From positions 2,666,001 to 2,730,000 of the forward strand of contig OZ361258.1 of NCBI GenBank assembly GCA_977018835.1: 64,000 bases of DNA. Direction: 5' to 3'. Origin of the DNA: Minutocellus sp. GHC0000111 (lineage: Eukaryota). The notes under the pieces are model-generated. The model had not been told where the DNA came from and made no database searches. It saw only the letters and a program-made list of their open reading frames with translations. The translations under genes and the position numbers were made by a program. The stretch's first letter is position 1. Each line of letters opens with the position of its first letter. This document shows positions 7,436 to 31,497 of this stretch, piece after piece.

Positions 7436-7846
7436 TGTTAATTTATATCAACCCCCCACGTAACAATCTCTACTAGTACGCAGGACAATCGCCCTTCTTC
7501 GACTTCTCCAGTGACCGGCGATTGCGAGTACACGTATGCGAAGTGATGATCGTTGCTTTCCTACAAAAGAGGCAATGCTGATGGTGAGGATACAACGAGG
7601 CGTTTACTTCGCACTTGTTGATGGCCATTTTTGTGGGAGATAAAAACGAACTTTCTGCAGAAAGCGCCAGAAAGCTGGAAAGTGTGAAACAATGTCCCGA
7701 TTCATGGTGTGGTTTTTACAGGCTGGGCAGGCTTGCGGAAAAACAAGTGTCAAAACCAATCGCCAGAGTTTGGCGATCGGGTTGCACATCATGTGAGCAA
7801 TGGCTCATTTGCGCTCGAAAGCAGCAGCACCTCATTATTCCTCGAC

Positions 7847-9889
7847 ATGAATATGCTGCGAGCGCAAGGAAAGCAGACCGCTGCGGCGGCGCTGCAGAAG
7901 AAGAGCGCAGTACAGCAGCCTTCTCCACAACAAGGTACTGCCGGCGCGGCAAGGCTGGCAGGCGATATGGGCCGCGCCGATTCTACAAAAGCCGCCGATG
8001 GGTCCGGCATAAAACTTTTCGATCACTTTCTCATCGAAGTGTTTGGCGGTGTTGCTTCTTCCGATTTGGACCCGTCGTATCTCGAGGACGGCGGCATCGA
8101 GCAGTTGGGCCGCGCATATGCCACATGGCTCGCAGATACTAACATACCACTCAATTTTGAAAAGTATCTCAACGATTCCAGTCTCGTCCCATCGAAATTC
8201 CTCAAGTACACGACCCTCAACGAATATTTGGGCAAGGCACTGAATTTGCTGGAGAAGATTTGCCCTGACGACCCTCTCTGGAAAGACGATGGTCTACGTG
8301 GAGAGTTTTCTGGTGCATCTTTTAAGAAGGCCTGCCAACGCAGCCAACAGCAAAAGAGTGACACCTTCGGACAGGAGCCGAAGCTTGCTCTGTATCGGAA
8401 AGCTCGTCATGGGGATGGAGAAACTACCACCGCGCCTCCCCACTGGATGAACCTCCTCAATGTTGAGGATATTGGAAAAAATATGCTCCGCGCTACGAAG
8501 ATTGGTGATGTTGCAACTGGCCTTGCTGCCAAACGCCTTGCACTTGTCCTTACCAAGCACGGTGTCGGCAGAGGAGGCGAAGTGAAGTACCTTGATACCG
8601 CTCACTTCAAATTCGATCCTTTTCTGATGGCGCTGGATACTATGTGGACCGAGCAGAAGACGCTCAACAGATATTCCTGCCCTTTCGTTCCAAACAAGGA
8701 TGAACCGTACAGCGATGTATTTCATGCTCTTGGATCACATGTGGTTGTTGAGAGGGGACTATATCGCATGCAGTCGGATGATGGGAAGAAACTGAACACC
8801 CACCTCTTTCCACAGCTGAGAACCATGGCTGGAAGTGGTGCATCGCGGTGGCAAACGTCGGCGATACAGAAGAATTTATCGGATGCGACACCAAAAGAAG
8901 AGAGGAAGAAGGTCACTGCCAAGTCGTCGCGTATCGGATCTATTACTGAAATGGGTGCTATGAATGTGGGGTTTTATCCCAGTCATGCTCGATCTGGCCA
9001 TACCGTTGGCACCAACCAAGAGAACTATTTCGACCGCTCCGATCCTTCTGTCTCTTTGTCAGCGGCGAAGGCTCTTGCTGGTTGGGTCGATTTTGGCGCC
9101 TTTGTTCATCCTCCTAATCTTCGTTGTCTGGGAGTTGATAAAGAGGTTACCGACAGGCTTATCATGAAACTCGTCAACTGCTCTCTCCCTGATTTTTTTC
9201 CGAACGGCCGTCTCTACCCAATCGTCGAAATATGCATCGCTTCTTTGATTATGTACGATGTCCAAGTCACTTCTGACCTCGGTCCAACGAATGCTGTGAG
9301 TCTTGCCCTTCGAGACGGATTCAAGGCAGCTAACATATTGGATTCTCGCTCCTCCTGTGGCACTTTTATTGGAGCTCTCAAATGCTGGTCCGAGCTCATC
9401 TTGAAAGACTTCAAATCCCGCAATCCTGATTTCCAGCCTCTTACTAATGCTAGCAATAGCATTCAAGTTATCAATACTCTCAATCAGCAATCTCAAATGC
9501 TGTCTCAGCTTTCGAACGAACTTGCCGACCTGAAGAGACAGAACATTCTGCTCCAGACTCTGCTTGAGGACGAGCGACAAGATCGGAAGGAGATGGGAAG
9601 TATGTTCAATTTGCCGAAATCGCCCGAGCCCAAGTCCAGCAAGAAGAGAAAGACAGACGAAAGTTTTATTACCAGCACCCCTGTGCAGTTGGATTACCCA
9701 CCTGAAGAGGTGGAATTGGAGAAGAATTATGACAGCGTCGACGCCGATCAACTTCATGGAGGAACTGCGTTGCACGACATTATATCCGGTGCATGCAAAC
9801 AGGGTCTGCTGAACGATGGATTTGTTTTTACGGGTTTGGAGAGGCCGGGCAGGTTTACAGACAACGCCAAGTACAACCACTGTCTTGAC
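7847..9889 (+). pseudogene. Tyrosine recombinase (Crypton-type), 5' part, 681 codons
   Basis: Catalytic-motif order R (GRGGE), K (EQKT), KxxR in place of HxxR (TAKSSRIGS), H (ARSGH), Y (ENYF), then KALAGW. Frame is cut at the TSD and the LTR supplies a stop at 9893-9895. Confidence 0.8.
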
Positions 9890-10084
9890 TGCTAAGAGGT
9901 CCTAAAGCTAAGCTAGATAGATATAGCTAGTAGAGGTAATAGGACCTACGTAGATGAAAAATGGGCCATCGGAGATGTCGTTGGCCCATGGATCAACGGT
10001 CAGGAGAGGGCACTGAGTCAGTGGTCTGATCACCGTACATACCGTACGTATGTATACGTACGTACGTATCCCACGGCATCAACA
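9890..10084 (-). repeat. 3' LTR (195 bp)
   Basis: Matches 15902-16097 except one 1-bp indel and one substitution (10039 A vs 16052 G). Confidence 0.97.
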
Positions 10085-10094
10085 CACCCTCGCA
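10085..10094 (-). promoter_or_regulatory. Polypurine-tract-like plus-strand primer site
   Basis: Element-sense TGCGAGGGTG directly abuts the 3' LTR. Confidence 0.6.
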
Positions 10095-10132
10095 GATCAA
10101 TGACTAGTGCCATTGAATCTACATGTAGAGTC

Positions 10133-13100
10133 CTAATTGGAATCTACATGTAAGTAGACTGGTCGCATGTCGACATGGTAGCGGGCGGGATGGTGCTTTG
10201 TAAAATAATCGGCCAAATTTTGCGCTCCTTTCCGCCAGTCAGCACACCTGGAATTGTCGTTGCTCTCCATGCGATCTTGGACCCAGTGGCAGAATCTCAT
10301 GTCCACAGCCTTAGACCGTCTTTGCTTGACGGTTTTATTGGCGATTCCAGATGCTGTAGAGTTGTCAACGACGATAGCAGTAGGGGGCTGCGGGTGACCC
10401 ATTTCTTCTAGTGCTGCCCGGATTGGTGCTGCATCTTTCATGTTGAAAAACAATCCTCCCAATTCGGCTTCAGCGGCTGAGGACATTACACATGCTTGAT
10501 GATGTTGGCATTGACGAGGATGGCTCCATTCATTGGTGGCATGGGATCACTTGAGTCAGGCTGGCGGTGCGGGTCCTTAGGTCGGGAGCTTAGGCAGAAG
10601 CACCCTCCGAGCTTGCTTCTTGATTTCGGGGCTGACAAGCAGGAGGCGTCGCTGTGTGCACATGTGGGATCATGTCTGACTTGACGTGTCGAATGACTGC
10701 GTCGGGATGGGTTGCAAGGTAATCTAGAAGCTTCTTGGCATCTTGTCGAGTGCGCTCGGTAGCTTTGGATTGTTCCGCTGAGATGCTGTTGAGCGCCGGT
10801 AAAATTGTTGAATCAATTGCTCGACCATGGCACAAGGAGCTGCCCACCACCTGTTGAATTTCGTTGATGCCTTCGGCGTCGAGTGGTGGTGAGTCGTCTT
10901 CCGGTTCTGGCAGCTGGGGTCCCGGGCCATGCGTCGGACGATTCCATCGATATGGCGCATGCTCGGGCCGTGAGGGGCGGTCGTGTTGGAACTTGAGGCG
11001 CATCTCCTTGACGTAGTTAGGCATAGATAGATCCACCCATTTGGCCTCGTAGTTCCACTCGAGTTGAACACCACAACAAAGTCGGCCTTCCCAATCGGTG
11101 GTGATCTTGTGCTTGGAGTTGAGGGCCTGAATGAGATGGTCTGCATGCTCTTTCCCGACATGCTTTACTCCAAAATCGTCAACGGTTAGGCAAAAGGTAA
11201 TTGGGCGGGTTTTGTGCCTCCAAAGGCCGGCAGCACGCTTGCAAGGGAAATAGCCATGGGGTTTGAGATGCTTGACAAGTTGATCGTAGGCTAGGCGCCC
11301 TGCCTGGGGTAATCCACACATTCCGCCATCGATTCTGACCAACACTCGACCATTTTTTACTTTGTCGTGGAGGTCGTAGGCTTCCATGACTTAGTCGGGG
11401 ATGAGAGCTACTGGCGCCCACATCCATTCTGGCTCTGGCATGGTGCTATTGAGATAGAAGTCACTGACATCAATTCCCATGAAACGAGCGTTGTCTGTAG
11501 AGATGACGCTGTTGAAAAGTAACTTTGCAGTCAACATTTCAGCGGTCGGGGTCGAGACTGTACGAGGGCAATGAATTTTGTCGCCTCCTGCAGTCCATCG
11601 AACTCGATTGGGATTTGGTTTATGGGAGCGATAGTCGGCGACAATGCGGAGGTATGTGGCTTTTTCCCCCCGAGGCAGTTCGGACCAGTGGACGAAAGCC
11701 ATTGTGTTGGAGAGAGTGCTAGCACTGTTTCCAACTCGGCCGTCCGTTAGCCGTCCAATTTCATCGATGTTTGCTTGAATGAATTGGTCCCTCATGTTTG
11801 TTTTGAGGAGGTCGCGGTATTCAAGCATTGCACCAGTATCGGGATGGACGACGGCGTTAGCAAAGTGTTGGAGGTTTGGTAAAGGCGAGAAAGCTGCCAT
11901 GTTGGCCACGTGGTGGGCACTGCGACGAGATGATGGCCGTGGGGGAGGGTTCCGATGTGGAATGTACCCTCGCTGACGGTATGATCGTCGTCGAGGTGGT
12001 TTGGCGGTCGATGGTTTGGACTTGCTTGTCGATTTTGCTGGAGCTGGCAATGTTGGAGTGGTGTCGATTGTTGGAGACTTGCGTTTACGTTGCCGACGGG
12101 AGGTGGGGGCATTGGAACTTTGATTGGATGTTATGACGGTTGCATCGTCGTCATGACTGTCATCATCGTCGCCGTTGGGCTCGTCTACTGCAGCCAAAGG
12201 ATTGTAGTAGTTGGAAGAAACTGACGAGCGAGGTGGCGCGTTGGATCGACGTGATCGACGGCTTTTTGTGGTGGCTGCATCACATGTGGAGGATTTTGCC
12301 ACCCTCGGAGGTTGCTGGGGCTGAGGTAACGGAGCGTTGGGGTTGGAGACAAGGTGATGGCCTACTTCAGTCTCGTTCATCTCTTCTACGTCGTCGTCCT
12401 CGTGTTTGATTTTGTAGCACTTATACTTCTTGTCAAATGCAACGACTCTACCCTTGTAATTGCGATCTCCAAACACTTTGGCGACGATGGCACCGAGGCG
12501 GAATCGTTGGGAGTCGTCATCGTTCTCCAGCACCCTCGGAGCTGCGGTTGTCTGCATCGTCTCATCAGAGGCGGAGGTGGCAGATTCTGCTGGGGTCACG
12601 CTGTTGAAAATCTCGGAGAGCTTTTCTAAAGCTTGACGATGCTCGTCTCGAAGGGGAGCAAGGGGTGCCGCTGGATGTGGATTCTGTAGAGCGTGCAGGA
12701 GTTCATGAGCTGCGACTATTGCTGCATCGGCCGACGACGTTTTGGGTACCGGAATCATTTTGGGGAGCCAGACGAGTGTGTTACCAGTGCGTTCCGCCCG
12801 AGTTTCCTCAATCCAAACCTTGTAACACCGGTAGTGTTCCATGGCTGGACCGACATAGTACCCATCAACGCCATGCGGGGACCAAGAGCCGCGTGCCGAG
12901 GGCATCTCGTGAAAGATGACCTTGCATCCGAGGGGGCCGAGAGGCGTGCGATTGAAATCAAAGCCGCCATTGAGTTGCTCGTACGCTGATAGTCGAGGGT
13001 TGACTCGGGATGCTCTCAGGAAATTGAGGGTCATTACCGCCTGCTCCAGCAATTTATCCCACAAGATGAGGGGAAAGTCGGGATCGGTACCACAGAGAAT

Positions 13101-14318
13101 CGCAATGAAATGATTCTTAAAGGTTCGAATGGCTCGTTCGGCCGCATTTCGGCGGTGGGAGTGCGTTGGGGTCAATTGAAAATCTACATCCTTTTCTTCC
13201 ATGAACTCCTTCAGCTCTCGACTCACTTCATTATCCAATCGTTGCAATTTTGGGCGAAATCCTCGCTTGGAGAGGCATTCGAAAATAGTTTGGCACGCTC
13301 GGCGCATTTCCGTTCCCGATCGGCTTTTCATTGGTTCGGCCAAGATGCTGTTGGAGTCATAGTCATAGACGACCATTGTGTGCTGGTGGCCAGAAATAGA
13401 CGATACCAAGAAACGGCCGGGCTGATCTGAGAAGATCTGGCCCGTTATGTCATGACAATCAGCAAAGACATAGTTGGTGCGCTGTTGGTGTTGTGCCGGG
13501 TGGAGATCCTGCTCGGTTTCGTCCACCCCAGGGAGAGATTTTGGCGCAGCCATCGACCGTTTGGGCTTGGTCGACCTGATGTTCTTGCGCTGCTGGTCTA
13601 AGTGACCTTTAATCATCGGTATCGACTGTGGCATGTGCTTACGTACAAGCTTTGATGTGAGGCCTGGCCAAGATCTATAAAATCCCGCATCGATTGCTTT
13701 GCACCAGGTAGATAGCTGAGGACTGCCAGCGCACCCATGTAAAAAGGCTACACGTTCCGGAACCGTCTCCTGGGCAATTGCGGCGTTGGCAGCATGTTGG
13801 ATGACGTTGGGGCCGGGGAGCGGCGACATGGTGGGCGAGCAATTAAGATCTACCATCCACAATTTCGTTGAGGGGTCTCGTTTACCTTGCAAAATGACGG
13901 TGTTGTCCTTGGCGATGACTACCGAATCCTTATCGAAAGTGGCAACACATCCATCGTCACACAGCTGCCCAATCGATAGGAGCGATGATGCCATATTATT
14001 GAAAATATAGGCCTTGCTAGCCGATGGGGAAACCCCAGGGAGGCGAAGCGTGGCCTCGTGGGTGTTCGTCATTGTGCTGTTATCCGGAAGGGTGACGCTG
14101 ATAGGAATTGCTGTCTGTTTTACGTTGAAAATAGGGCCATCGTACGACAGGTATTGGGGCTTCTGGACAAAATGTCCCGTCGTTCCAGTATCTGCTGCGA
14201 GGACGATTGGCTCTTGAGTTGGAGGTTTGCTTTTTGACGTAAGAAAAGCTAACGAAGGCGGGGAGGAGGTGGGTTCAGACATACTATCCTCTATTTTACA
14301 CTGATTAACATCCACCAT
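10133..14318 (-). pseudogene. pol: Copia pol (protease, integrase, RT, RNase H), disrupted
   Basis: PR ADTGTTGHF; IN FSDQPGRF / RLDNE / NAAERAIRTFKNHF; RT IDVSDFYL, LPQAG, VDD; RNaseH HSDAS, SSAAEAELGG, VDNSTA, NLADYFTK. In-frame TAA at 11391-11393 and frameshifts near 10655, 10490, 10265 and 10240. Confidence 0.95.
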
Positions 14319-14327
14319 CCCTCCCGC

Positions 14328-15608
14328 TCAGTTACGACGCGAGCTACCACCGCAAGGATTGCACTTGGTGGCGTTATCAACGTGGTTGGGCCCTTTGCAA
14401 GTGCATTCAAAGCTGGGGTGGTTGGACGAATAGCCGCACGTGTGGCAATAATGGCCTCTGGGGAGGATCGACTGCAGTTCCCGCTTCTCCTGGCGGTTGA
14501 GGTTAGGACCTTGGCCTGGGAAGTGGCCGGCGCCGTTCTGCTGGCCACCGCCGCGGTAGCCTCCACTGCCACCAGCATGGTTGCGTCCCTCACGCAGAAC
14601 GCGGTTCTCGGCCTTGAGTGAAGCTGTTTCTTGACGAAGTTTGGCAATGGTGTCATCCTTCTCGTTGCCCTTTTTTGCGAGGTTCGCCATCATGGCTTGG
14701 TTGGTCTTGAGGGCTTCGGTGGCATCAGCCAAAAGGAGATCGGCTCGAGAAAGAAATGGATCGTCCGAGGCCGATGAGGCCAAATTCGCGCCATGACATC
14801 CTGCCGCTTCGGTGGTGGTATTGGCCATCTTCTTATCATGCCAATCGCGGAAGTCCGACTGCATGTTGGCCCACGTGCGTTCGGCCTCCGGTCTGTCGTC
14901 CCAGTCCTCGCATGCCTTCTTTGCCAATGAGAACCTGCGCACGGAGCGGTAGAACTTGGAGACCTTTTGCTTGTTGGTGAAGGGTTCGCCGGCCGTTTCA
15001 AACGCCTTGAAGACTTTGTTGAATGTGGCGATGTGGGTGTCGATGGGTCCCCCGTCGCACTGCTTCTCGAGCTGCTTCTCTAATTCCTCCTTCTGAGTCT
15101 CGTTGAATTTCAAGTAGCGATCGGCAATGCTGTCGATGATTTGGCGGATGGTGACTGGCTGGAAACCGAGCATGTCATCTTCGAGATGATTGATGTAGAC
15201 GGCGTCGATCGAGTCGAGGAGGAGATTCTTGAGCGCCGTGTTGACTTGCTCGTACAAGTTGCAGTGGCCCTTTTCGATGTGATGTCCCCGGATTGCACGA
15301 TCGCGTTGGTCTAGATTGGCCACGGCGGGAATGGTGGGGCTGGGGCCAGGATTTGCCGGAGGCGCATGTGGTCGGCCGTCACTTTTGGTGGTGTGTTCGG
15401 CATCGCTGACGACGAGGCCCAAATGGCCGAGGTTGTGGTCATTGCACCCTGCTGGAATGCTGGCCGCCGCTTGTTGAAGTTCCTTGAGCGCTTTGGCAAC
15501 ACGCTCGCGTTGGGGAGGTTGTCCTGGGTCATTCATGCGTGTGATTAACTTGGTGGGGAGAATCGGCGCTGCGCCGAGAGGTTGGCCAAAAACTGCGTCG
15601 GGATTCAT
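14328..15608 (-). CDS. gag: Copia gag
   Basis: 426-aa ORF upstream of pol with GHLGLV, PANPG and C-terminal knuckle-like YCHTCGYSSNHPSFEC. Confidence 0.88.
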   Translation of the reverse strand: MNPDAVFGQPLGAAPILPTKLITRMNDPGQPPQRERVAKALKELQQAAASIPAGCNDHNLGHLGLVVSDAEHTTKSDGRPHAPPANPGPSPTIPAVANLDQRDRAIRGHHIEKGHCNLYEQVNTALKNLLLDSIDAVYINHLEDDMLGFQPVTIRQIIDSIADRYLKFNETQKEELEKQLEKQCDGGPIDTHIATFNKVFKAFETAGEPFTNKQKVSKFYRSVRRFSLAKKACEDWDDRPEAERTWANMQSDFRDWHDKKMANTTTEAAGCHGANLASSASDDPFLSRADLLLADATEALKTNQAMMANLAKKGNEKDDTIAKLRQETASLKAENRVLREGRNHAGGSGGYRGGGQQNGAGHFPGQGPNLNRQEKRELQSILPRGHYCHTCGYSSNHPSFECTCKGPNHVDNATKCNPCGGSSRRN

Positions 15609-15889
15609 GCTGCTGGTGTTTCAGTCAGCGAAGACAGGCAGCGCGGCGGTGTTGCTGCGAGACGTGTGATCAACAGAAGGTTCGATCCAGAGAAGTGTGA
15701 TCGATTGGATGGGTCGATCTGGTCAGGACTTTCGGGGAAGGGATTGGATCGTCGTTCCAATATTGTCGAAAGAAACGGTCGTTTTGGCCGATTGAAGATG
15801 TGTCGGTTTTTCTTGCGTGACGAGTGAGAACCCAAGACAAACCGGTGAGGTGCGAACCGAAATGGGGCGAGCACGGGTGGAAAAGATGT

Positions 15890-15901
15890 ATCACGTAGGT
15901 C
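15890..15901 (-). promoter_or_regulatory. Primer-binding-site position (non-canonical, no TGG)
   Basis: Element-sense GACCTACGTGAT immediately follows the 5' LTR. Confidence 0.55.
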
Positions 15902-16097
15902 TGCTAAGAGGTCCTAAAGCTAAGCTAGATAGATATAGCTAGTAGAGGTAAATAGGACCTACGTAGATGAAAAATGGGCCATCGGAGATGTCGTTGGCCC
16001 ATGGATCAACGGTCAGGAGAGGGCACTGAGTCAGTGGTCTGATCACCGTACGTACCGTACGTATGTATACGTACGTACGTATCCCACGGCATCAACA
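15902..16097 (-). repeat. 5' LTR (196 bp)
   Basis: Element-sense TGTTGATG...TAGCA, flanked by TSD TTGAC. Confidence 0.97.
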
Positions 16098-16102
16098 TTG
16101 AC

Positions 16103-16411
16103 CTTCTCGATGCTGTTGTTGAGGACGACGAGAAGAAATTCCTGTGTAAAAAAGGCCACAGTGATCAGGCTCTAGAAGATAAAGTCCGCAGTATTTCTCG
16201 GCGTGCATTAGACCTGCTAAACAAGATGGAAGGCTCTCCCGAAGATGGCAACCACACAAGGAAGGATGGATGCTCTCTGGTGTGGGTTCGTTCGCGAGCC
16301 CAAAAGATCAAAACTAAGCACAAAGCAAGCAGCATGAAGGAGGCATCGGAAAGCAACTCCCAGACATCACTTGATTCTCATTTTTTACGCAAAAGCGGCG
16401 GCAGTAAGTAG
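16103..16411 (+). pseudogene. 3' part of the Crypton tyrosine recombinase ORF (102 codons + TAG)
   Basis: Removing the Copia and one TSD joins ...NHCLD|LLDAVVEDD... in frame, giving a 783-aa ORF. Confidence 0.85.
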
Positions 16412-16921
16412 ATATGTAGCTCTCGAATTTATTTGTTGTGATGGTGCGTGATGTGATTCGGGTGCGCGATTTCGAGGGGGTTTCTGGAAAGAATTCGCCA
16501 CGTCAGCAGCGCTTTTAAGTCTCACTGGATGTCTTGCACTTTCCAGAAAGCGCGGCCGGCGCGCGCGGTGCGCCGTCCCGGCGTCGTCCGTTCCTCGCGG
16601 CGACACGTGGCCGCTGCGCGGCCACTTTCCAGCCGGAAAGTGTGATTTTTTTGCGGTTGCCGTTTGCTCTGCAACGTCAGCAGATTTCTTTTTGTGCTGG
16701 CTCATCCATGCATTGTGAGAGCCATGGTAAGGTAGGTGCCAACACTTGCGCATTGCACGACACAGACGAATGGTGTGGTGGACCTACCACGTAGCTCCAT
16801 AGAGGCAGATCACGTACCGTGTCCACGCCAAGAGCACTTCATGAGGCCCGTGGTCAGCGCTCCGATACCTTTATTCGCTCACATTCACCGAAGCCGGCCA
16901 CACTCCTTGCCTCCTCTCTTC

Positions 16922-17679
16922 ATGATGACTGCCGGCGGCGTTGGTGACACAAGCCCTCTGCTATCGAAGCCGCAGGCGCTGCTTTCCCTCCCTTCTGCTC
17001 TATCATCCATCCAGCTTCCACCGATACCGCTTTTATGTCTCTATTCCGCGATACTGATCATTGCATCGGCCGCAACGTGGTTGTATTTGCGCCTCTACCA
17101 TCCAATAGTTCATCCCTACCCCTGGACGCTGGCATTTTCTCCCTCACGACGGATAAGGTGGTGTTGGCAGGGTCGTACAATCCACCGCATCGGGGACATG
17201 TCGCCATGCTGTCCTATTTGTCGCAGAGATACGGCGAGGTGATTGCCGTGGTGGGGATGAATCCAGCCAAAAAGTATGCCGTAAGTCCACAACAGCGGGC
17301 AGAATTCATCCAGCAAATGATCGATGCCGAGGAAGAAATCAAGGACAATGTCCGTGTCGAGGTGGTGCAGGGGTACATCTGGCGCTTCGCTTTTCGAGAG
17401 GGTGTGTCGATCATGTTCCGTGGCATCCGCAGCTGGGCCAAGGATGGTGACGAAGAACGATATCTGCATTTTCTCAATACGTGGGGACCCATGGTGTTCG
17501 GTCCACTGCGTTGGCCATTGCCGACGCAATTCTTGGAGGGAAAGCCAGAATACAATCACATATCGAGCACGTTGATTCGAAACATGTGTGTGGAGGCCAA
17601 GAAGAAAGGAACCGAGGCGGATTTAACTGCATTGGTTCCGGAAGGAGTTGCCGACGGTGTTGCCAAGGCATATTGCTAG
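16922..17679 (+). CDS. coaD: Phosphopantetheine adenylyltransferase (CoaD-like), apparent frameshift between N-terminal TM segment and catalytic domain
   Basis: LAGSYNPPHRGH (HxGH), NPAKK, RGIR and ISSTLIR in frame 17035-17679; hydrophobic leader from ATG 16922 lies in another frame. Confidence 0.8.
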
Positions 17680-17753
17680 CTAGCTACACTAATAAGTACA
17701 TAAATATCACGTGAATGTCTCTAGCTACTAATAAGCACATAAATATCACATGA
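17680..17753. repeat. Short imperfect tandem repeat (~34 bp x2) between convergent genes; second instance at 32256-32329
   Basis: ctagctacactaataagtacataaatatcacgtga / ctagctactaataagcacataaatatcacatga. Confidence 0.75.
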
Positions 17754-17888
17754 GGCTACCTATTCAGTTGAATATGGTTCTAACTTTTCATTATGATAGA
17801 TAGATTTAAGCTATATTTAGCGGGACGAACACCACCACCAAAATATCACGTGAAGTCTCTACTGTAGCCAAGACTCGCTCTGGCGAGC

Positions 17889-18911
17889 TCACTCTCTGGC
17901 CTTATTGTGCTGCTTGTAGTCAGGCAGATAAGGAGCCGCCATGGTGAACATCTCCGTGAAAAAGTTGTAGGGGATGAAAAAGGTTCCCATGCGCGTACCC
18001 CAAGCCATACTTCCCAAGTCGCGAAGGGCACAGACACCGATACTACGGAGGATATCGTTGGGGAGCTTCTGGGGTGGCACGGCACTCTTCTGCGCGGCCT
18101 CCATAAGCTCAATCTTGTGATCGACCTTGTCGTAAAAGTTACTGGCCACCGGTGATGGGTGTACGGCGACGACATCAATCCCGAGATTCTGAACCTCGAT
18201 GTGCAGACTGCAGGCGAATTGCGACACAAAGGCCTTCGTCGAGGCATACATGGCAGCGAATGGAGTGGGGATGAATCCCGCCACAGACGACGTGAAGACA
18301 ATGCAACCCTTCAGCTTCTTCTCCACCAGAATCTTGACAAAGTGATGCGTAACGTTGACCGAGGCTGTGGCATTGCACTCCACATTGGCCAAAAGCTTGC
18401 CGATGGGCGCCTGGTCCAGAAATCCGGTAACGATGAAGCCAGCGTTGTTGAAAATAACCTGCACATCAATGTCCTTGGTCTTGGCCTTGATGGACTTCAT
18501 GTAATCCACACCCGGACTGAAGTTCACACCGACGGGCCGGAACTCCAAATCGGGATACTCGGCCTGCAATTCCTTGATGGTGGTCTTGAGGAAATCATCG
18601 TCGAGCGACACCACCACAACGTTGAGCCCCTGCGAGGCCAGCTTGAAGCACAGGGCCTTGCCAATACCGCTGCCACCGCCCGTGACGAGGGCCCACTTGG
18701 CTCCGTACTTCTTCTTCAAGTCGGGCACGGGACGGAAGGCCATGAACAGCTGGGGGATGAGGTAGGCAATGAACCAAAAGGTGGCCGGAACGGCCAGGAC
18801 GGCGATCAAATAAACGGCATATGGCGACAAAATGGCCGGAACCTCGACGGGATCCGGCATGATGCATTCCGGCACCGCCGGCTCCTGGGATGAGAACAAC
18901 GACCAGCCCAT
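17889..18911 (-). CDS. Short-chain dehydrogenase/reductase, KCR/17beta-HSD12-like
   Basis: N-terminal TM, YGAKWALVTGGGSGIG, NNAG, YASTK; likely ATG at 18911. Confidence 0.9.
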   Translation of the reverse strand: MGWSLFSSQEPAVPECIMPDPVEVPAILSPYAVYLIAVLAVPATFWFIAYLIPQLFMAFRPVPDLKKKYGAKWALVTGGGSGIGKALCFKLASQGLNVVVVSLDDDFLKTTIKELQAEYPDLEFRPVGVNFSPGVDYMKSIKAKTKDIDVQVIFNNAGFIVTGFLDQAPIGKLLANVECNATASVNVTHHFVKILVEKKLKGCIVFTSSVAGFIPTPFAAMYASTKAFVSQFACSLHIEVQNLGIDVVAVHPSPVASNFYDKVDHKIELMEAAQKSAVPPQKLPNDILRSIGVCALRDLGSMAWGTRMGTFFIPYNFFTEMFTMAAPYLPDYKQHNKARE

Positions 18912-19410
18912 GTTGGTTTTGTTATCGGATAACAAAATGGCGCTGCGATGATAACAGCTGATGATAACCCAAATGGCCAATGACGTCGTGGCCCATTGAT
19001 CAAAAAGGAGTTATTGCGTATGAGGGGCCCTGCAGCCCTTTTCTTTGTGACGTCCGTGCTTTCCGTTGGCCGCCTCCATTTTTCGATACCGCGTTGGAGT
19101 CAAATAGCCCAAGAATACATCAGCCAGGACATATTGCTGGCTGGGGTGGAGCTGAACCTCCTCGCTTTGCTTTATACCATTGAAAGGAGTTGGTTTGATA
19201 GCGACCGCCTCCTGATTGATTCAGCGTAGTCAACACATCTTGTGCCGATTTTTATCGGATCGTGTCTGATTCCCGGTTGACCAGCGGCCAAGCCGGAGGC
19301 AATCCCATCAACGTTTTTGTACCTTTCTTCAGTTGAACCGGTTCAGATAAACCTTGAAAAACTGCCACCAGGACCTTAACGGCAGGTCCATTTATAGAAA
19401 AGCAGCAACT

Positions 19411-20802
19411 ATGGAGTCCTCCTCCGAAAAAGTGGCACGAAGGATACGAAGGAGAGGTGCGAAAGTGGCCACCACCACTACTACTGCTGGGTCACGCCCC
19501 GCGCCTCTCGCGATCCTGCTTCACGCCCTCCTCACATTCTTCGCCGTCGTCCAACGTAACGTCCGGCCAGTACAAGCTCAGAGCATCAACATAGGGTCCT
19601 TTATTGATCAAGACACCCTCGATCGATGCAAGGCTGCGCTCAACGAGGCTGACACCGACGACGATCTGATGGTGACGGCCGAGGAATACATTACGTACGT
19701 CAAGGGTGAATCCGGCCTGGCCATCGAGACGGAAGCCGATGAGCTAGTTGAGATCCCACTGTCGTTGGTCATGCTGTTCATTCGATATGCCTGTCAGTGC
19801 GTCCAGCGTCCCGGTGCGACGCCGCAGTGCTGCCACGGAGAGAATGCCCACCTCAACATTGCCGACGATGGATCGACCACCCAGTCGGTGTTCTTTTTGG
19901 ATTTCTGTCTGGATGCGCAGGATGCCATCGAGGAGGTGATGGTGACGGCATCGCCCACTCCAGCCCCGACCGTGGCACCGACCTTTGAGAACCAAATGTC
20001 AGTGAGGTTTCAGTACACTCTGACCAACGAAGATGGGCTGAATGCCGAGGCAGTCATGACGGGTGCTGGTGGAAACACGCTCAAGGCTGATCTGGAGGCC
20101 GCTACAAGGACCATCGTAATTCGAACACTGAACGAGACCAATCCTGATGCCTTCCGGGGACGTAAGAGCGTGGACAGTACCATTGGGTCCATTCCTCACG
20201 CCACTCAGGGTCGTGATCCGAGTACTGCACGCAAATCATCAATATTCGAAAAAGTCAGGAAGAACAAACTCGAGAGGCATCAGCAGCTGCACAGCGACGA
20301 GCCTGCAGATGTGGAAGGCGATGATACCGACCGGAGACTATTTGATTACGATGCCAACATGCAGCTATACCTTGACGATGGTGCAGGTCCATTTCTTCAA
20401 AAGTGCGGCATCGATGTTTATCGCCTCGACGAGGACACCTTGGAGGAGAGAGCGATTGCTCTGTCTCTCGCGGAGCTTTACCACCGAGCACAGCAAGCGA
20501 AGAGAGGTGATCGCCAAGTGCAACAAGGAGGTCAAGGGGTAGAATATCAGGATGGTCATCGGCACGACCGGCGTCGACTGGTAATTTACACGGATTTGTT
20601 GTTTATTGATATTTATCTTGTGCTCGATGATCCAACCTGCCCGCCGCTGTCTTCTATCGAGTGCCTAGTGATATTCACTCGCATACGTCTCCTCCTGGAA
20701 GAGGGAGATGACCAAGAGATGGTAAGAGACTTGGTTTCACAAGGAATGCGAAATAGCTTCGCCGATGGGTCCTTCATCGCAGCGATACCTGATAGCGAAT
20801 AG
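19411..20802 (+). CDS. Hypothetical secreted/membrane protein with EF-hand-like and Cys-rich segment
   Basis: Hydrophobic signal-like stretch, ADTDDDLMVTAEEY, CQC...CC, TASPTPAPT linker. Confidence 0.6.
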   Translation: MESSSEKVARRIRRRGAKVATTTTTAGSRPAPLAILLHALLTFFAVVQRNVRPVQAQSINIGSFIDQDTLDRCKAALNEADTDDDLMVTAEEYITYVKGESGLAIETEADELVEIPLSLVMLFIRYACQCVQRPGATPQCCHGENAHLNIADDGSTTQSVFFLDFCLDAQDAIEEVMVTASPTPAPTVAPTFENQMSVRFQYTLTNEDGLNAEAVMTGAGGNTLKADLEAATRTIVIRTLNETNPDAFRGRKSVDSTIGSIPHATQGRDPSTARKSSIFEKVRKNKLERHQQLHSDEPADVEGDDTDRRLFDYDANMQLYLDDGAGPFLQKCGIDVYRLDEDTLEERAIALSLAELYHRAQQAKRGDRQVQQGGQGVEYQDGHRHDRRRLVIYTDLLFIDIYLVLDDPTCPPLSSIECLVIFTRIRLLLEEGDDQEMVRDLVSQGMRNSFADGSFIAAIPDSE

Positions 20803-20975
20803 TGGACTTGATAGTGGTGATGCTACGGTACAAGGATGTTGATGTTGCAATGAGGAATGCTAATGCAATGGGATCTTTCGGGGCAGCAACACCAACATCA
20901 ATGCATGTAATTTAAATGGCATAATAATACTTATTATTGAAATTTTAGGACGTTTCAATGCCATTTGTATGTACT

Positions 20976-21776
20976 TTATTTATCGCTCTCATCATTACTA
21001 CCCTCATCTCCCTGCTCATCTTCATCGCTCTCTCCATCGGTTGGCACCGCCTCCACCTCTCCTTCACGATACAACCACGCTCCCTGTCGGATATGCTTTC
21101 CAGCCCTGGCAAAGGTTGACGTTTCCATGAAAGCCGTCTTTTCCCTTGAATCACGTTGCGTCATCGTTGCAACAAACTTGACTTTGGCAATCTGTTGGTC
21201 TCCTTCTCCTTCGAATGACTCTTCCAAAATGTTGCACTGTTTGAGCTCAAAGTTATCGTAGCAATTGATCTCAATGTCGTGCTTCATTTGATCTATATCT
21301 GCCTGGAAATTCTTGTTCAGTGGATGGACCGAGCCGACAATGAAATCAATCTCACGCTTGGCATACGCCGAATACCGGGCCCGCACAATCTGCTCCGGAG
21401 TTGCATTTGCGAACGCATCCGCACTCTTGTGGATGCCACCGCAGCATTTCATATATTCGAGTCCAGACCCACAGGGACAATCCTCAACCGCCGCACCGCC
21501 GAAACCAGAGGTGGAACGCTGTCGGTTGCCCACACCCCTGATCTTTTTCTTCTTCTTGGTGCCACCCTTCTTGGCAGTGAGAGTGGTTGTGGTGAGAGCT
21601 GGAAAATCAGATGCCGATCGAGCCGTGGAAGTGCCGATGGCGCGGGATGCAGTGAAGGCACATACCGCCGCTGGAGTTGTGGCCAACAAGGCGAGGAGAA
21701 GAACAATTCTTCGGGCCGTCATCGTGGTGGCTGAAGCAAGCAAGGGCGACTTGGCTGAAGGCAGAGAGTCGATCAA
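20976..21776 (-). CDS. YchJ/SEC-C motif protein, plastid-targeted
   Basis: CPCGSGLEYMKCC, TPEQIVRARYSAY, WLYREG; signal peptide with VCA-FT cleavage motif. Confidence 0.88.
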   Translation of the reverse strand: MIDSLPSAKSPLLASATTMTARRIVLLLALLATTPAAVCAFTASRAIGTSTARSASDFPALTTTTLTAKKGGTKKKKKIRGVGNRQRSTSGFGGAAVEDCPCGSGLEYMKCCGGIHKSADAFANATPEQIVRARYSAYAKREIDFIVGSVHPLNKNFQADIDQMKHDIEINCYDNFELKQCNILEESFEGEGDQQIAKVKFVATMTQRDSREKTAFMETSTFARAGKHIRQGAWLYREGEVEAVPTDGESDEDEQGDEGSNDESDK

Positions 21777-22240
21777 TGGCGCACAATGAGCTGCACAATG
21801 GCAAGTACGTGGACGGTGCGGTGTTGGAAGTATCGATCAGCGATTACTTTATTTGTTCATTTAGAAAGCCCCCGCAGTATGTGGTGTCAAACCGCATCTT
21901 TTGAAGATGACATGCTCCCATGTTTTGCGTGTTGTTTAGCATTACTAACATTTTAAGCTTGGCGAGTACAAGATACCGCCCAGTGACATAGCACACCTGC
22001 GTGTTCTCTGTCCCGCGACCTTCGCGCATCTCGTTTTTCAACATGCGGTGGACGATGCGACACGTCAAACTGAAATTTGGCACATCATATCGAAAGTAAG
22101 CCAAATGCCAACGATGACCTCTTGCCGCGGCCGCATAAAATGAGATGTGCACGAGAACGACCGTTTATTATGACCGGGTGATGACCACAATCTTTTCTTA
22201 ATCTGTATATCTAAAACGCACCCGAATTTATCATTTCATC

Positions 22241-24016
22241 ATGACGCTCGAAATCTCCTCGCCATCGGCGTCGGCCCCTCTTACGGCCTCTGCATCGCCG
22301 GTCGTTGGCGGTGGTGGCAAAAGCAAATGGTCACCTTGGGTGAAGAAGCCATTATGGGCCGCAACCGATCCGCACTTAGTGGCATCCGTGGATGGGGAGG
22401 CTGGAGCACAGACGCATCTGGCGCGACATCTGACGCTGTTCGATCTCATCTGTATTGGAGTTGGTGCTACGATTGGAAGCGGCGTATTTGTGCTGTGTGG
22501 CCTGGTCGCACATAGCTATGCTGGTCCTGCGACCTTTCTCTCGTGGGGAATCGCTTGCATGGCAGCTACATTAAGCGGACTATGTTACGCAGAATTGGCC
22601 GGTCGTTTCCCTGCTGCTGGGTCATCCTATGCCTACAGTTTTATCGCGTTGGGAGAATTACCAGCAGTTCTAGCTGGCTCTTGCATGACTTTGGAATATG
22701 TCTTCTCTGCAAGTGCCGTTGCCAGGTCCTGCGGAGACAAGGTCGTGGAATATGCAAAGGCGAACATGGATCCAGATTCGAATCACCCTATACTCAATTT
22801 TCTGGAGCCAGGTGGCGGAGTGAATCCATTTGCATTCATCATCTCGACTGTGGCAATAGGGTTGCATCTCCGCGGAGCACGCGAATCGAAGGGCGTTACC
22901 AACGTCTTTTCACTTCTCAAGGTGTCCTTGGTGATCTTCATGACGGCGGTAGGTTACAGCCTACTTCAGCCAGCAAATCTTACACCAGTGGTTCCACAAG
23001 AGTTTGGTATTTCAGGCGTATTCAGAGGCGCTTCGACCTTGTTCTTCGGTTACATTGGTTACGATGAGATCTGTTGCGTCGCGGGAGAAGCTATTAATCC
23101 ATCTCGAAATCTGCCACGGGCAGTAATCGCTTCGCTGGTGACCGTTACGATCCTCTACATGGTAGCTGCAGTAGCACTGACTGGAATGGTACCATACGAA
23201 GAAATTAGTGAAACATCTCCATTCCCGGATGGCTTCCGTTACCGTGGCGTAGAGTGGGCATCACATCTAAGTGCAATTGGCGAGCTTGTCACTCTGCCCT
23301 TGGTCGTGCTGGTATCAATCATGGCACAACCGCGGCTGCAGTACGCCATGGCCCACGATGGTCTTCTCCCAGCAATATTTGCTTCCCTCGATTCGAAGGG
23401 GAATCTGTGGTGGGGAACTTTGATCTCAGGCGTGGTCATGATAATCATTGCCACGTTTGTGCCATTCACGTATCTCAATGATCTCATTAGCGCAGGAATC
23501 CTCATTGCTTTTTCAATGACCGATGCCAGCGTGATTCTGCTCAGACACAAGTCTCCAGAGAATAAGCCACTCTACTTGGAGAAGTTATTGGGCGCATTCA
23601 ATGTCCTTGCAATAATATCTGGAATTCTGGTTTCGTACTGCGCAGACACATTTGAAGGACAATGCTTCTCAGCATTATTTGGCTTGCTTCTGCTTGCGGT
23701 TGGATTCGAATTGCAAAAAGTTTGCGCTCGATCTCCTTCTTCGGAATCTACTCCGGCCGACAAGGAGGGCTTCAAGACACCCATGGTGCCATTGTTGCCT
23801 CTACTTGGAATGGCTGTGAATTGGTACCTGATTGCACATCTTGCCACGTTCAGTCTTATCCTCTTGGCAATATATCTCGTCATTACATTCGCAATCTATT
23901 TTCTGTATTCTTCTAGGCATAGCGTGGCCAATACTACTGGTTGGATTCGGCATGATGGTGATGATTCCGGCGGAGACGGTAATTTTGAGCTAGCAACTGG
24001 GCACAAGATAACTTAA
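22241..24016 (+). CDS. Cationic amino-acid transporter (APC/CAT family)
   Basis: LTLFDLICIGVGATIGSGVFV, CYAELAGRFPAAGSSY, FFGYIGYD, PRLQYAMAHDGLLP. Confidence 0.93.
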   Translation: MTLEISSPSASAPLTASASPVVGGGGKSKWSPWVKKPLWAATDPHLVASVDGEAGAQTHLARHLTLFDLICIGVGATIGSGVFVLCGLVAHSYAGPATFLSWGIACMAATLSGLCYAELAGRFPAAGSSYAYSFIALGELPAVLAGSCMTLEYVFSASAVARSCGDKVVEYAKANMDPDSNHPILNFLEPGGGVNPFAFIISTVAIGLHLRGARESKGVTNVFSLLKVSLVIFMTAVGYSLLQPANLTPVVPQEFGISGVFRGASTLFFGYIGYDEICCVAGEAINPSRNLPRAVIASLVTVTILYMVAAVALTGMVPYEEISETSPFPDGFRYRGVEWASHLSAIGELVTLPLVVLVSIMAQPRLQYAMAHDGLLPAIFASLDSKGNLWWGTLISGVVMIIIATFVPFTYLNDLISAGILIAFSMTDASVILLRHKSPENKPLYLEKLLGAFNVLAIISGILVSYCADTFEGQCFSALFGLLLLAVGFELQKVCARSPSSESTPADKEGFKTPMVPLLPLLGMAVNWYLIAHLATFSLILLAIYLVITFAIYFLYSSRHSVANTTGWIRHDGDDSGGDGNFELATGHKIT

Positions 24017-24096
24017 AGGCCATGGTGGCTACGAAGACTTGTCGGGTACTGATTGCTAGTCGGAATCTAATTCTATTATTAATTTGTTTATTACAA

Positions 24097-25473
24097 TCAT
24101 TCAACCTCCGCATCAATGACGCCCCCAGCGAGTCGCCTTTGTCCAGTAGATGTACCTCTATCAGACGATGCACTTCTCCTCGCTGGTCTTGTCGGTTCCT
24201 TTCCAAGCACCCAATTGCAAATCTCATTCACCGCTCCCTGCATGATGTTCTCATCACCAAAAGAAGCTCCCTGAAAGCCGCCAGAAACTTCTCCCGCAAT
24301 ATCTCGGGCCTCTTCGGGAAGATCGAAATCATTGAGATTGAGATTTATAAACACAGGACCAAGATGCGATCCCTCCAAACCAGAGACTTTTGGACCATTT
24401 CCACCAGCTGTTCGGCACGCATTGAGGAATCCTTCGGAACTGTCCAATCCATCATCGTCAAACACAAAAAGCCGGGTCTTGTCCTGAAGAGCCTGATCAT
24501 ACTTACTGCTCACAATCCTTTCTGTATCAGCAGGTGACGGCTTGAATTCGAGACCAATCATTCCTATCGCCATCTCGGCTATCTGGCCAATGTTATCAAA
24601 CATTGCCTCATCCATTCCGCTCCCAAGGTTGCCCTGTAGCTCTCGAGCAAACGACTTGGTTTGCTGAACGATGGAAGAGAATCCAAAATTATTGTAGGAC
24701 ATAAAACCGACACCTGAAAGATCGGCTCCAATTCCCGTCGCCGCCAAGGATATTGTCTGGAGCTTGCAGCCCAGACTGTGGCTCAGAAAGAATTTTGGCA
24801 GAGAGCTTGCATATCCTCGTTCGTCTTCCAACTTGATTATGGCTTTTCGGAGAGATTCACCATTCTTCTTGGCTATCTCAAAGTGGTCAATACCCAAATC
24901 ATATGGTGCAGCAATCACGGCAGCATTGAGGCGGGCAGAGACGCGTTTGAGAAGCTCGCTGTAAGCAATGTGCGGGTAGGTGCCCAATCCAGCTCCACCG
25001 GTGAACAAAATGACACAGGAAGGTGTTGACGGAGGTGATGGCTCCAACAGATACACAAATTCCTCTTTCATCGATGGCGGAGGTGTGAGATCGTCATTCC
25101 ATTTGTAGTCCGTGGGTTCCTCAGATAAGACGACCTTTTCCCATTCGCCAATCCGTCGGTTATTACTTAATTCATATTGCTGATCAAGACGTGCCAACGC
25201 CGAGACTAATTCTCCTGTCCCACCCATCCCTTCGCCGTCACCAAGAGACATGGATAGACCGTTTGGCGAAGATGATTGCCTCCACGTGGTGTTGATGTTC
25301 CTCTTCGTCAGCAATTTCTTTGCCCTCTGACGAAGGGCGGCGTGAGTAGCACCGGCGGCAGCAGTGGCGACATTCCCTCTATTACCCGGCGCATCATTCA
25401 GCACGAAAGCAGAAGACAACCACAAAGATGATAGTGGGGAAATCCCAGATATGGAAGCTGGAAGACTCTTCAT
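24097..25473 (-). CDS. DUF1350-like alpha/beta-hydrolase-fold protein, probably plastid-targeted
   Basis: FTGGAGLGTYPHIAYSELL, HSLGCKL, SYNNF; SSA-FV presequence motif. Confidence 0.8.
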   Translation of the reverse strand: MKSLPASISGISPLSSLWLSSAFVLNDAPGNRGNVATAAAGATHAALRQRAKKLLTKRNINTTWRQSSSPNGLSMSLGDGEGMGGTGELVSALARLDQQYELSNNRRIGEWEKVVLSEEPTDYKWNDDLTPPPSMKEEFVYLLEPSPPSTPSCVILFTGGAGLGTYPHIAYSELLKRVSARLNAAVIAAPYDLGIDHFEIAKKNGESLRKAIIKLEDERGYASSLPKFFLSHSLGCKLQTISLAATGIGADLSGVGFMSYNNFGFSSIVQQTKSFARELQGNLGSGMDEAMFDNIGQIAEMAIGMIGLEFKPSPADTERIVSSKYDQALQDKTRLFVFDDDGLDSSEGFLNACRTAGGNGPKVSGLEGSHLGPVFINLNLNDFDLPEEARDIAGEVSGGFQGASFGDENIMQGAVNEICNWVLGKEPTRPARRSASSDRGTSTGQRRLAGGVIDAEVE

Positions 25474-25689
25474 TGGTTGTCTCAAACGTGGGGTGCGTTC
25501 GTGGCTCGGCCCAGTGAAGAATGAAGGCGACTGAATGAAGCGAAGCGAAGGGAAATAAAAATCAGGGGGGGGGGGGGCAATTGGTCATTCCGTCATCCGA
25601 GCCGAACGAACTCTGTCGAACAGGGAAGAAGCTTTTCTCAGTGCCCCTCGGCCCTCGCCTCCTTGCCGTGGTCGCATAAGAATGGAACG

Positions 25690-26888: not shown

Positions 26889-27222
26889 TGTGCTTATTTG
26901 AGACCTCAGATTGTGGGGACATTTGTTTGCTCTCTCTAGTACATGTATCTACATGTACCGGTAGGATTCCTAGTCTAATTCTAACGCACCTTGTCGAGCT
27001 ACAGGCTTTTACGTCGTAAGAAAGAAAAATATTCAAAACCGTTGGCTTGGTCATCATCACACGGCACGAGGCACGGGGCCCAGAGCCGGCCCAGGCAGCG
27101 CAGCTAGTAGCAGCGCATCCGCATCCAGCCACAAATTAAATACTAGCTAGAGTGCGGCGAGTAAGTCACAGCATGAGCATGACTTGATGATATGCCTTGG
27201 TCGGAGGTCGTCGGTACCAATA

Positions 27223-29265: not shown

Positions 29266-29450
29266 TCAAACTGCAGCTAGCTGAGGCAGACAATACGATA
29301 GAATCTACAAGATATTTGCATAGTAGATAACCGTTCATACGTATAACAATATTTTGCATGACAAGCTCCCAATAATATGTAGTATAGATCTAGCCGACGA
29401 AGCGAGGAGAGGTCCTGAATGGATGTTTATTTCTTTACCAAATATTGACA

Positions 29451-30674: not shown

Positions 30675-30678
30675 TGAC
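30623..30678 (-). mobile_element. 51-bp terminal fragment of the Copia 5' LTR plus TSD copy
   Basis: cgtacgtaccg...catcaaca|ttgac; carries the 5'-LTR variant (G). Confidence 0.92.
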
Positions 30679-31303: not shown

Positions 31304-31497
31304 TAAGGTAGGTGCCAACACTTGCGCATTGCACGACACAGACGAATGGTGTGGTGGACCTACCACGTAGCTCCATAGAGGCAGATCACGTACCGTGTCC
31401 ACGCCAAGAGCACTTCATGAGGCCCGTGGTCAGCGCTCCGATACCTTTATTCGCTCACATTCACCGAAGCCGGCCACACTCCTTGCCTCCTCTCTTC

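What the first reader, a model, noticed from the sequence alone, without database searches (positions are those of the whole stretch)
10133..15888. Strand-symmetric TpA->TpG/CpA hypermutation of the Copia interior: a 'reverse-RIP' genome-defence signature
Seen: at positions where Copia/CoDi proteins normally have Tyr, this element has Cys (TGY) or His (CAY), each one transition from TAY. Sites: GM[C]GLPQAG 11316-18; VDDFGVK[H]V 11160-62; K[H]KITTDW 11109-11; L[C]CG 11076-78; PT[H]G 10929-31; L[C][H]GRAID 10827-32; IR[H] 10686-88; SDAS[C]L 10639-41; IH[C]P 11568-70; RA[C]Q 13293-95; K[H]EDDD 12402-04; Q[H] 13380-82. Other changes fit the same rule: MI[P]H CCA<CTA 10665-67, [T]MV ACA<ATA 13377-79, T[A]GG GCA<GTA 11589-91. 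Hand counts: 9 TpA in 14641-15600 vs about 21 in host gene sequence 17941-18900, and 1 TpA in the leader 15609-15888. Knowledge: RIP and 5mC decay give C->T and create TpA, the opposite direction. ADAR editing of the genomic RNA would give A->G on one strand only. Inference: A->G on both strands in a TpA context points to DNA adenine deamination, or a mutagenic adenine modification, aimed at repeats. I know no described eukaryotic system with this signature. No candidate enzyme is encoded in this window.
Basis: partly seen in the sequence, partly recalled or inferred. Interest (0 to 1): 0.95.

Follow-up and report, generated by a model that had tools for sequence, protein, structure and literature searches.

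The report
TA-erasing hypermutation of diatom retrotransposon family
In a diatom genome, copies of one jumping-gene family have had about half of their tyrosine codons rewritten by TA-to-TG or TA-to-CA changes on both DNA strands while their end repeats and the neighbouring genes are almost untouched, likely the footprint of an unidentified DNA-editing defence that I found described only in one 2026 preprint on an unrelated alga.

Summary
Real, and much stronger than one copy shows. The window holds a diatom Ty1/copia element (9890-16097, minus strand). Across it and 50 sister-copy proteins, 329 of 687 ancestral Tyr cells are Cys (186) or His (143); only 3 are anything else, and other residues change at most 2.7%. 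The target is RTAY > YTAY > RTAR > YTAR (0.37, 0.18, 0.05, 0.015 per strand). It is strand-symmetric (131 vs 133 of 373), and copies were hit largely independently. Both LTRs keep all 10 RTAY sites, nearly all family LTR depth is unedited, and the interrupted flanking gene is untouched. Copy number is therefore not the trigger, and 'reverse RIP' is a loose name. The signature is in print once: TpA hypermutation of integrated viruses in Bigelowiella natans (bioRxiv 10.64898/2026.01.13.699255). I found no diatom report. This scan noted the same process before in another diatom genome (94 findings). Best mechanism (inferred): an enzyme-made lesion, likely adenine deamination, on integrated silent DNA. 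No enzyme was identified, and no genome was available.

The parts
15902..16097 (-). 5' LTR (TG...CA), 22 TpA steps including 10 RTAY, none edited; nine RTAY lie in an array at 16048-16083
   Evidence: no variant row at 2% or more at the nine array sites in runs X1, X2, X4
9890..10084 (-). 3' LTR; differs from the 5' LTR by one C/T at a CpG and one 1-base indel, with no TpA difference
9885..9889 (+). Target-site duplication TTGAC (left copy)
   Evidence: empty-site contig joining 9884 to 16098 in runs X1 and X3
16098..16102 (+). Target-site duplication TTGAC (right copy)
15609..15901 (-). Leader. TA-poor in the whole family; its lone inner TpA (15761-62) is edited both ways in other copies, while the TpAs at 15889 and 15896 beside the LTR are not
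14328..15608 (-). gag ORF (426 aa), still open; 8 of 13 ancestral Tyr are Cys or His
10133..14315 (-). pol (protease, integrase, RT, RNase H in copia order); 14 of 39 ancestral Tyr in 10686-14315 are Cys or His; dead, with a stop at 11391-93 and five private 2-4 base insertions near 10655, 10488, 10287, 10268 and 10240
12363..12494 (-). PTM/DIR17-like Tudor domain (PF21743) inside pol, after the integrase core
   Evidence: E 7.6e-11; also precomputed on P0001-P0004
7688..9889 (+). Flanking ORF interrupted by the insertion; Crypton-like by language-model look-alikes; not edited (31 RTAY vs 34.2 expected); internal control
16103..16411 (+). In-frame continuation (102 codons) of the interrupted flanking ORF

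Best explanation
Copies of this diatom copia family carry TA-to-TG and TA-to-CA transitions on both strands, mostly at RTAY, throughout the coding interior and almost never in the LTRs or flanks; they were likely made after integration by a host enzyme, most likely an adenine deaminase, that would act on silent mobile DNA. Shown: direction, purity of transitions, motif, strand symmetry, near-independence of copies, uneven load between copies, LTR and flank sparing. Inferred: a lesion (A to hypoxanthine) placed singly on either strand of chromosomal DNA and fixed as G:C at the next replication; episodic action; guidance by silent chromatin that stops some 200-350 bases short of the neighbouring host DNA; and a defensive effect through Tyr-to-Cys/His and similar missense damage.
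For: 329 of 332 changed Tyr cells are the two transitions. Rates per strand are RTAY 385/1053, YTAY 129/703, RTAR 40/791, YTAR 3/202, and palindromic Tyr sites give 131 A>G vs 133 T>C of 373. Non-TA adenines change at 0-0.9%, with AAY highest at 17/1934. The same column holds Tyr, Cys and His in different copies. Sharing between pol copies is no greater than in shuffles (P 0.32), with a slight excess spread in gag (P 0.006). Neighbouring edits are not strand-coordinated. Load is strongly overdispersed (chi2 256, 52 rows), matching the on/off behaviour of B. natans lines. In this copy 31 of 54 visible interior RTAY sites are edited against 0 of 20 in the LTRs (P about 4e-8). A rare divergent LTR form (about 1-4% of depth) does carry five clustered TA transitions, so LTR sequence can be edited and sparing looks positional. 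B. natans shows the same signature arising in mitotic lines on integrated, non-retro DNA. [quoted passage not shown]
Against: No enzyme was found or could be searched, as no genome was held. A lesion on A cannot be told from a lesion on the paired T by spectrum. Edit load does not track each copy's private non-TA changes (rho 0.15, P 0.29, 50 rows, low power), so a steady post-insertion clock is not shown. No same-locus allele pair was available to prove timing. TAG is a poor target here, although ADAT2/3 anticodon and ADAR substrates often have G after the A (recalled). Chromatin state was not measured. The family spectrum is inferred from proteins, so silent changes are invisible; it uses 50 listed proteins of about 200 cluster members, assumed to come from the window's own assembly or species. 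Frequent 2-4 base tandem insertions in the copies are not explained by simple deamination.
Confidence: 0.5

Rival explanations
1. The lesion is on thymine. A TET/JBP-type oxidase modifies T in RTA within silenced elements (5hmU, then 5-formyl-U), and the modified base pairs with G, giving T>C on either strand.
For: It gives an identical spectrum. In dinoflagellates 5hmU is made on DNA by TET/JBP enzymes, is enriched in repeats and prefers TA and TC (PMC11572971 passages).
Against: That paper does not mention diatoms (0 occurrences) and its passages describe silencing, not mutation. TC steps are barely hit here (GA/TC class 12 of 6435). 5-formyl-U:G mispairing is recalled, not tested.
Confidence: 0.15
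2. Editing happens once per retrotransposition cycle, on the cDNA in the particle or just at integration, so that each new copy is born edited.
For: Copies are nearly independent. Load does not track private divergence. This insertion is absent from runs X1, X3 and X4, which show only the empty site, yet it carries an average load. LTRs are spared.
Against: Exact strand symmetry with no strand runs, and no significant positional gradient in pol (rho -0.15, P 0.15), are hard to get from transient single-stranded cDNA. Rare old LTRs are edited. B. natans shows the signature without reverse transcription.
Confidence: 0.15
3. Error-prone gap filling by a Pol eta-like polymerase, recruited by repair of methylated transposon DNA, makes A>G at WA motifs and occasional short duplications.
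For: The 5' ranking TA > AA > GA/CA fits the WA motif (bioRxiv 10.1101/783118 passages). Copies carry many 2-4 base insertions (26 unique in 20,395 aligned residues), weakly tied to edit load (rho 0.30, P 0.04, n 49).
Against: Transitions are 329 of 332 here. In Pol eta-linked hypermutation A>G, A>C and A>T make up 28%, 13% and 12% of mutations. TAY is hit 20-40 times more than AAY. There are no strand-coordinated clusters. Insertions are no closer to TA than chance (6 of 26 within 3 bases vs 7.4 expected). The Y-family gene in the window is kappa, not eta.
Confidence: 0.1
4. ADAR-type A-to-I editing of the element's RNA, fixed by reverse transcription.
For: U before A is the ADAR preference (preprint discussion).
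Against: Sense-strand T>C is as common as A>G (133 vs 131). TAG is disfavoured. LTR sequence, which is part of the RNA, is spared.
Confidence: 0.02
5. Artefact of long-read basecalling or assembly, or wrong polarity (RIP or 5mC decay creating TA in the other copies).
For: The source assembly is unknown, and modified bases can cause systematic miscalls (recalled).
Against: Edited alleles in both directions stand in Illumina RNA-seq contigs of two studies (X7, X12) and at high depth in X1 and X3. Outgroups at 57-84% identity keep Tyr. DNA outgroup L001 has 38 RTAY where the window has 15; TA to TG/CA counts 39 against 14 in the reverse direction.
Confidence: 0.03

Closest known systems
TpA-specific hypermutation of integrated NCLDV and virophage DNA in Bigelowiella natans (Mettrop et al., bioRxiv 10.64898/2026.01.13.699255)
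   Same: TpA to TpG/CpA, almost pure transitions, both strands, confined to foreign or mobile DNA, uneven between lineages, enzyme unknown (the authors propose an ADAT2-like A-deaminase). RT and DDE domains are enriched among their TpA-poor genes.
   Different: The host here is a diatom (stramenopile), not a chlorarachniophyte. The target is a high-copy LTR retrotransposon about 6 kb long, not 25-186 kb viral inserts. An RTAY preference and LTR sparing are measured here; the preprint's main text has no mention of diatom, LTR, trinucleotide or polymerase. The rate per generation was measured there and not here.
Repeat-induced point mutation (RIP) of filamentous fungi (recalled; RIPCAL abstract start seen)
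   Same: Dinucleotide-specific transitions on both strands that ruin transposon coding sequence.
   Different: Opposite direction (RIP is C:G to T:A and creates TpA). RIP keys on repeatedness, whereas here the most repeated part (the LTR) and an exact host-gene duplication are spared.
Pol eta A:T phase of somatic hypermutation (WA motif)
   Same: A>G dominant, with TA preferred over AA.
   Different: Near half of A:T changes there are transversions, against about 1% here; the TA:AA ratio is far more extreme here.
Dinoflagellate 5-hydroxymethyluracil made by TET/JBP (PMC11572971)
   Same: An enzymatic DNA modification enriched in repeats with a TA preference.
   Different: Described as a silencing mark, also at TC; no mutational signature in the passages seen; diatoms not mentioned.
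CoDi (Copia-like in diatoms) Ty1/copia retrotransposons
   Same: LTR-gag-PR-IN-RT-RNase H order, 5-base target duplication, VDDFG RT motif, nearest named relatives in diatoms.
   Different: Carries a PF21743 Tudor-like domain after the integrase; CoDi subgroup not determined.

Membership tests
B. natans-type TpA hypermutation | A:T to G:C transitions almost only at TpA | tested here: met
   329 of 332 Tyr changes; TA 557 of 2749 strand-observations vs 0-0.9% at other adenines
B. natans-type TpA hypermutation | Both TpG and CpA outcomes (both strands) | tested here: met
   131 vs 133 of 373 at palindromic sites
B. natans-type TpA hypermutation | Confined to foreign or mobile DNA, host genes spared | tested here: met
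   RTAY O/E 0.05-0.51 in the interior vs 0.72-0.84 in host DNA; flanking ORF 31 vs 34.2 expected. One window only.
B. natans-type TpA hypermutation | Non-constitutive, uneven activity | tested here: inconclusive
   Load overdispersed between copies, but differences in age or position could also cause this
B. natans-type TpA hypermutation | Acts on integrated DNA in mitotic cells at about 1000 times background | not testable with these tools
   Needs mutation-accumulation lines or allele pairs
B. natans-type TpA hypermutation | Same (homologous) enzyme | not testable with these tools
   Enzyme unknown in both; no genome held
RIP | C:G to T:A transitions | tested here: not met
   C>T 0.14-0.33% per observation vs 20% at TA
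RIP | Triggered by sequence repetition | tested here: not met
   LTRs spared; 14.6 kb duplication has one non-TA mismatch, though its age and reality are unknown
ADAR RNA editing | A>G on the transcribed strand only | tested here: not met
Pol eta signature | WA motif with a large share of transversions | tested here: not met
   WA ranking met, transversion share about 1%
Ty1/copia (CoDi) | Paired TG...CA LTRs, short TSD, integrase before RT | tested here: met
Ty1/copia (CoDi) | Placement in a numbered CoDi clade | not tested
   No tree was built

The most novel reading that the evidence does not exclude
It would be the mirror image of fungal RIP and may be widespread across SAR eukaryotes.
Probability: 0.35. 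Interest if true: 0.93.

Novelty: new variant of a known kind. Interest (0 to 1): 0.76.

Why it matters
It extends a mutator known from one preprint on viral inserts in a rhizarian to LTR retrotransposons in a diatom, a group with genetic tools, so the enzyme can be hunted. The RTAY preference, the near-pure transitions and the sharp LTR/edge sparing are fingerprints that any candidate must reproduce. A natural DNA adenine editor (or a mutagenic thymine mark) used as defence would be a new class beside RIP and APOBEC and of interest for base editing. In practice, the process inflates divergence between copies, so ages of diatom transposons taken from interior divergence would be badly overestimated.

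Tried and rejected
Own-genome analysis: no genome is held, so no DNA-level alignment of copies, genome-wide TpA scan or enzyme search was possible. Raw TpA O/E as evidence: the element overall (0.47) equals host coding DNA. Leader TA-poverty as evidence for this copy: it is family-wide. Site 11589-91: not a private edit. Strand-coordinated tracts: none. U-shaped gradient along pol: suggested by raw bins, not significant after adjusting for copy and context. Load vs age: no correlation, low power. Insertions next to TA sites: all five private RNase H insertions of the window lie at or beside TA sites by my reading of the sequence, but family-wide they are not closer than chance; rejected as a rule. 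Descent of edited copies from one another: one gag pair is identical at 16 of 16 TA sites, but this is not beyond shuffles (P 0.17). Pol kappa in the window as candidate: an ordinary orthologue. Edited copies in other organisms: none evident among the 79 of 80 metagenome loci with an RT match or 118 related proteins; these are mostly collapsed short-read contigs or intact ORFs, so this is no evidence of absence. Rfam: 0 matches in 9800-16200. Run X15 laid nothing. Contig depths are not copy numbers and are used only as rough shares.
Full report
The element. The finding lies in a Ty1/copia retrotransposon on the minus strand. Its LTRs are 15902-16097 and 9890-10084, they differ by one C/T at a CpG and one single-base indel, and a TTGAC target duplication flanks them. 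gag (14328-15608) is open. pol is dead, with a stop at 11391-93 and five small insertions in the RNase H end that the sister proteins covering those places lack. The host is a diatom: the named relatives of the window's Pol kappa are Epithemia, Mayamaea, Fistulifera, Phaeodactylum and Pseudo-nitzschia, those of pol are Fragilaria and Fistulifera, and a gag relative comes from Arcocellulus. No whole genome is held. Runs X1 and X3 hold a contig across the empty site and X4 shows the same junction, so the insertion is polymorphic.

The observation. All 15 listed ranges and the three hand counts are correct. Fourteen of the 15 are derived changes. T[A]GG at 11589-91 is Ala in 6 of 6 sister copies and 1 of 3 outgroups and should be dropped. 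Raw TpA counts prove little: the element's O/E of 0.47 equals host coding DNA, and the leader is TA-poor in the whole family.

The family test. The pol cluster has 113 members and the main gag cluster 71. I used the listed proteins that are 92-97% identical to the window: 17 for pol and 33 for gag. Most lie on contigs of 0.2-5 Mb and probably come from the same assembly or species, which is an assumption. Three or four relatives at 57-84% identity served as outgroups. At 52 columns where the outgroups have Tyr, 687 cells (window included) give 355 Tyr, 186 Cys, 143 His and 3 others. Ten control residues change at 0-2.7%. The same column often holds all three states, so the ancestor was TAY and either strand was hit. 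At 25 widely conserved Tyr columns, Cys fills 48 of 202 cells in sister copies and 2 of 2805 in 118 other relatives. The only DNA outgroup, L001, has 38 RTAY where the window has 15. Short-read contigs agree: 24 of the 40 variant rows shown (119 more were hidden) are TA/TG/CA switches by my count, and edited alleles in both directions occur in Illumina RNA contigs X7 and X12. This excludes a long-read artefact.

The fingerprint. Over 166 inferred TA sites, edits per strand are RTAY 385/1053, YTAY 129/703, RTAR 40/791 and YTAR 3/202. At palindromic Tyr sites there are 131 sense A>G and 133 sense T>C of 373, so the overall excess of Cys is a context effect. Other adenines change rarely: AAY 17/1934, AAR 5/1972, GAY 7/3115, GAR 5/3320, CAY 0/761, CAR 1/1026; classes that may hide a TA were set apart. 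Adjacent edits do not share a strand more than in shuffles. Pol copies share edits no more than in shuffles; gag shows a slight excess spread (P 0.006) and one identical pair. Load varies widely between copies (0.14 to 2.2 times expectation; chi2 256 over 52 rows) and does not track private non-TA changes (rho 0.15, P 0.29).

What is spared. Each LTR has 10 RTAY and none is edited, against 31 of 54 visible interior RTAY sites in this copy. Across the family, the nine RTAY of the LTR array show no variant at 2% or more in X1, X2 or X4. Sparing is not absolute. A divergent LTR form at about 1-4% of depth carries five TA transitions (15934-15961), position 15953 reaches 7% in X1, and one X3 contig has two edits at 10045 and 10049. 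LTR sequence can therefore be edited. The leader TA at 15761-62, about 340 bases from the flank, is edited both ways, while those at 15889 and 15896 are not. The ORF the element landed in, Crypton-like by look-alikes with NDC10_II/GCR1_C domains, keeps its RTAY. An exact 14.6 kb duplication of host genes differs at one non-TA base; it may be very recent or an assembly artefact. Together these argue against repeat counting and for a positional cue. The edge reading was prompted by earlier scan notes on another diatom genome and is only partly tested here.

Mechanism. Near-pure transitions at one motif, placed singly on either strand, fit a base-modifying enzyme better than an error-prone polymerase: Pol eta-linked hypermutation has A>G, A>C and A>T at 28, 13 and 12%. 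Adenine deamination is the simplest chemistry, since inosine is read as G. A thymine lesion gives the same spectrum, and 5hmU made by TET/JBP prefers TA in dinoflagellate DNA and is enriched in repeats. Silent chromatin as the guide is inferred from the CG-methylated transposon islands of diatoms. Timing after insertion rests on the symmetry, the edited old LTRs and the B. natans precedent, and is not proven here. The many 2-4 base insertions (26 unique in 20,395 residues, 20 of them in gag) are unexplained; they are not nearer to TA than chance and lack a host control. The window's Y-family polymerase is Pol kappa.

What is in print. bioRxiv 10.64898/2026.01.13.699255 reports TpA to TpG/CpA hypermutation of integrated viruses in Bigelowiella natans, about 1000 times background, in some lines only, with an ADAT2 homologue as candidate. 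I read parts 1-3 of 5 (abstract to conclusion) and ran a term search of its main text. Its supplements were not seen, and its mutation table bears directly on the RTAY comparison. For PMC11572971, PMC9998398, PMC12344493 and bioRxiv 10.1101/783118 I saw term passages only; all other papers were seen as search listings. Searches found no report of this signature in diatoms; the library lacks most subscription journals. RIP, ADAR and ADAT context details, 5-formyl-U pairing and basecalling errors are recalled. This scan has 94 earlier findings of the same kind in at least one other diatom genome, including the RTAY/YTAR order. These are unchecked notes and are not counted as evidence; my motif and sparing results were computed before those two look-ups.

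Verdict. The feature is real. It works like the B. natans process and meets its testable features, but shared enzyme and timing are untested. It is not RIP, not RNA editing and not a standard Pol eta signature. I class it as a new variant of a barely known kind, with interest 0.76.

Noticed in passing
window 12363-12494 (-): The pol polyprotein carries a PTM/DIR17-like Tudor domain (PF21743, E 7.6e-11) after the integrase core. It is listed for P0001-P0004 but not for the other 116 hits shown. It could be a chromatin-reading insertion-targeting module, like the chromodomain of chromoviruses (recalled). One paper search showed no obvious description in its listing.
   Followed up: partly
window 7688-9889 and 16103-16411 (+): The copia landed in frame in an ORF of about 780-830 codons whose look-alikes are Crypton-like NDC10_II/GCR1_C tyrosine-recombinase proteins (no Pfam hit of its own). 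It is not TA-edited.
   Followed up: partly
window 16047-30625 and 30623-45201: Exact tandem duplication of 14.6 kb of host genes with one mismatch (17767), starting inside the 5' LTR; recent copy-number gain or assembly artefact.
   Followed up: partly
window 27151-29265 and 41727-43841 (+): DNA polymerase kappa gene, present twice through the duplication.
   Followed up: yes
window 16048-16083 and 10035-10070: The LTR begins with an array of ACGT/TACGTA motifs (6 TACGTA per LTR vs 1 in the 5.5 kb interior), resembling bZIP A-boxes (recalled); possibly the promoter, and possibly protein-protected.
   Followed up: no
window 10236-10660; sister proteins P0169, P0170, P0184, P0192, P0194: Clusters of 2-5 base tandem insertions, some recurring at the same place in differently edited copies (15440, 15471, 14897); similar small insertions occur in short-read contigs of the leader.
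   Followed up: partly
window 55250-56660: A second stretch nearly free of RTAY (an 867-base gap from 55791), with no Pfam hit in the one ORF scanned nearby; could be another edited remnant or simply GC-rich sequence.
   Followed up: no
window 15902-16097, run X1: Summed contig depth over the LTR is roughly 3-5 times that of the leader and interior, hinting at many solo LTRs or internally deleted copies (depth is not copy number).
   Followed up: no
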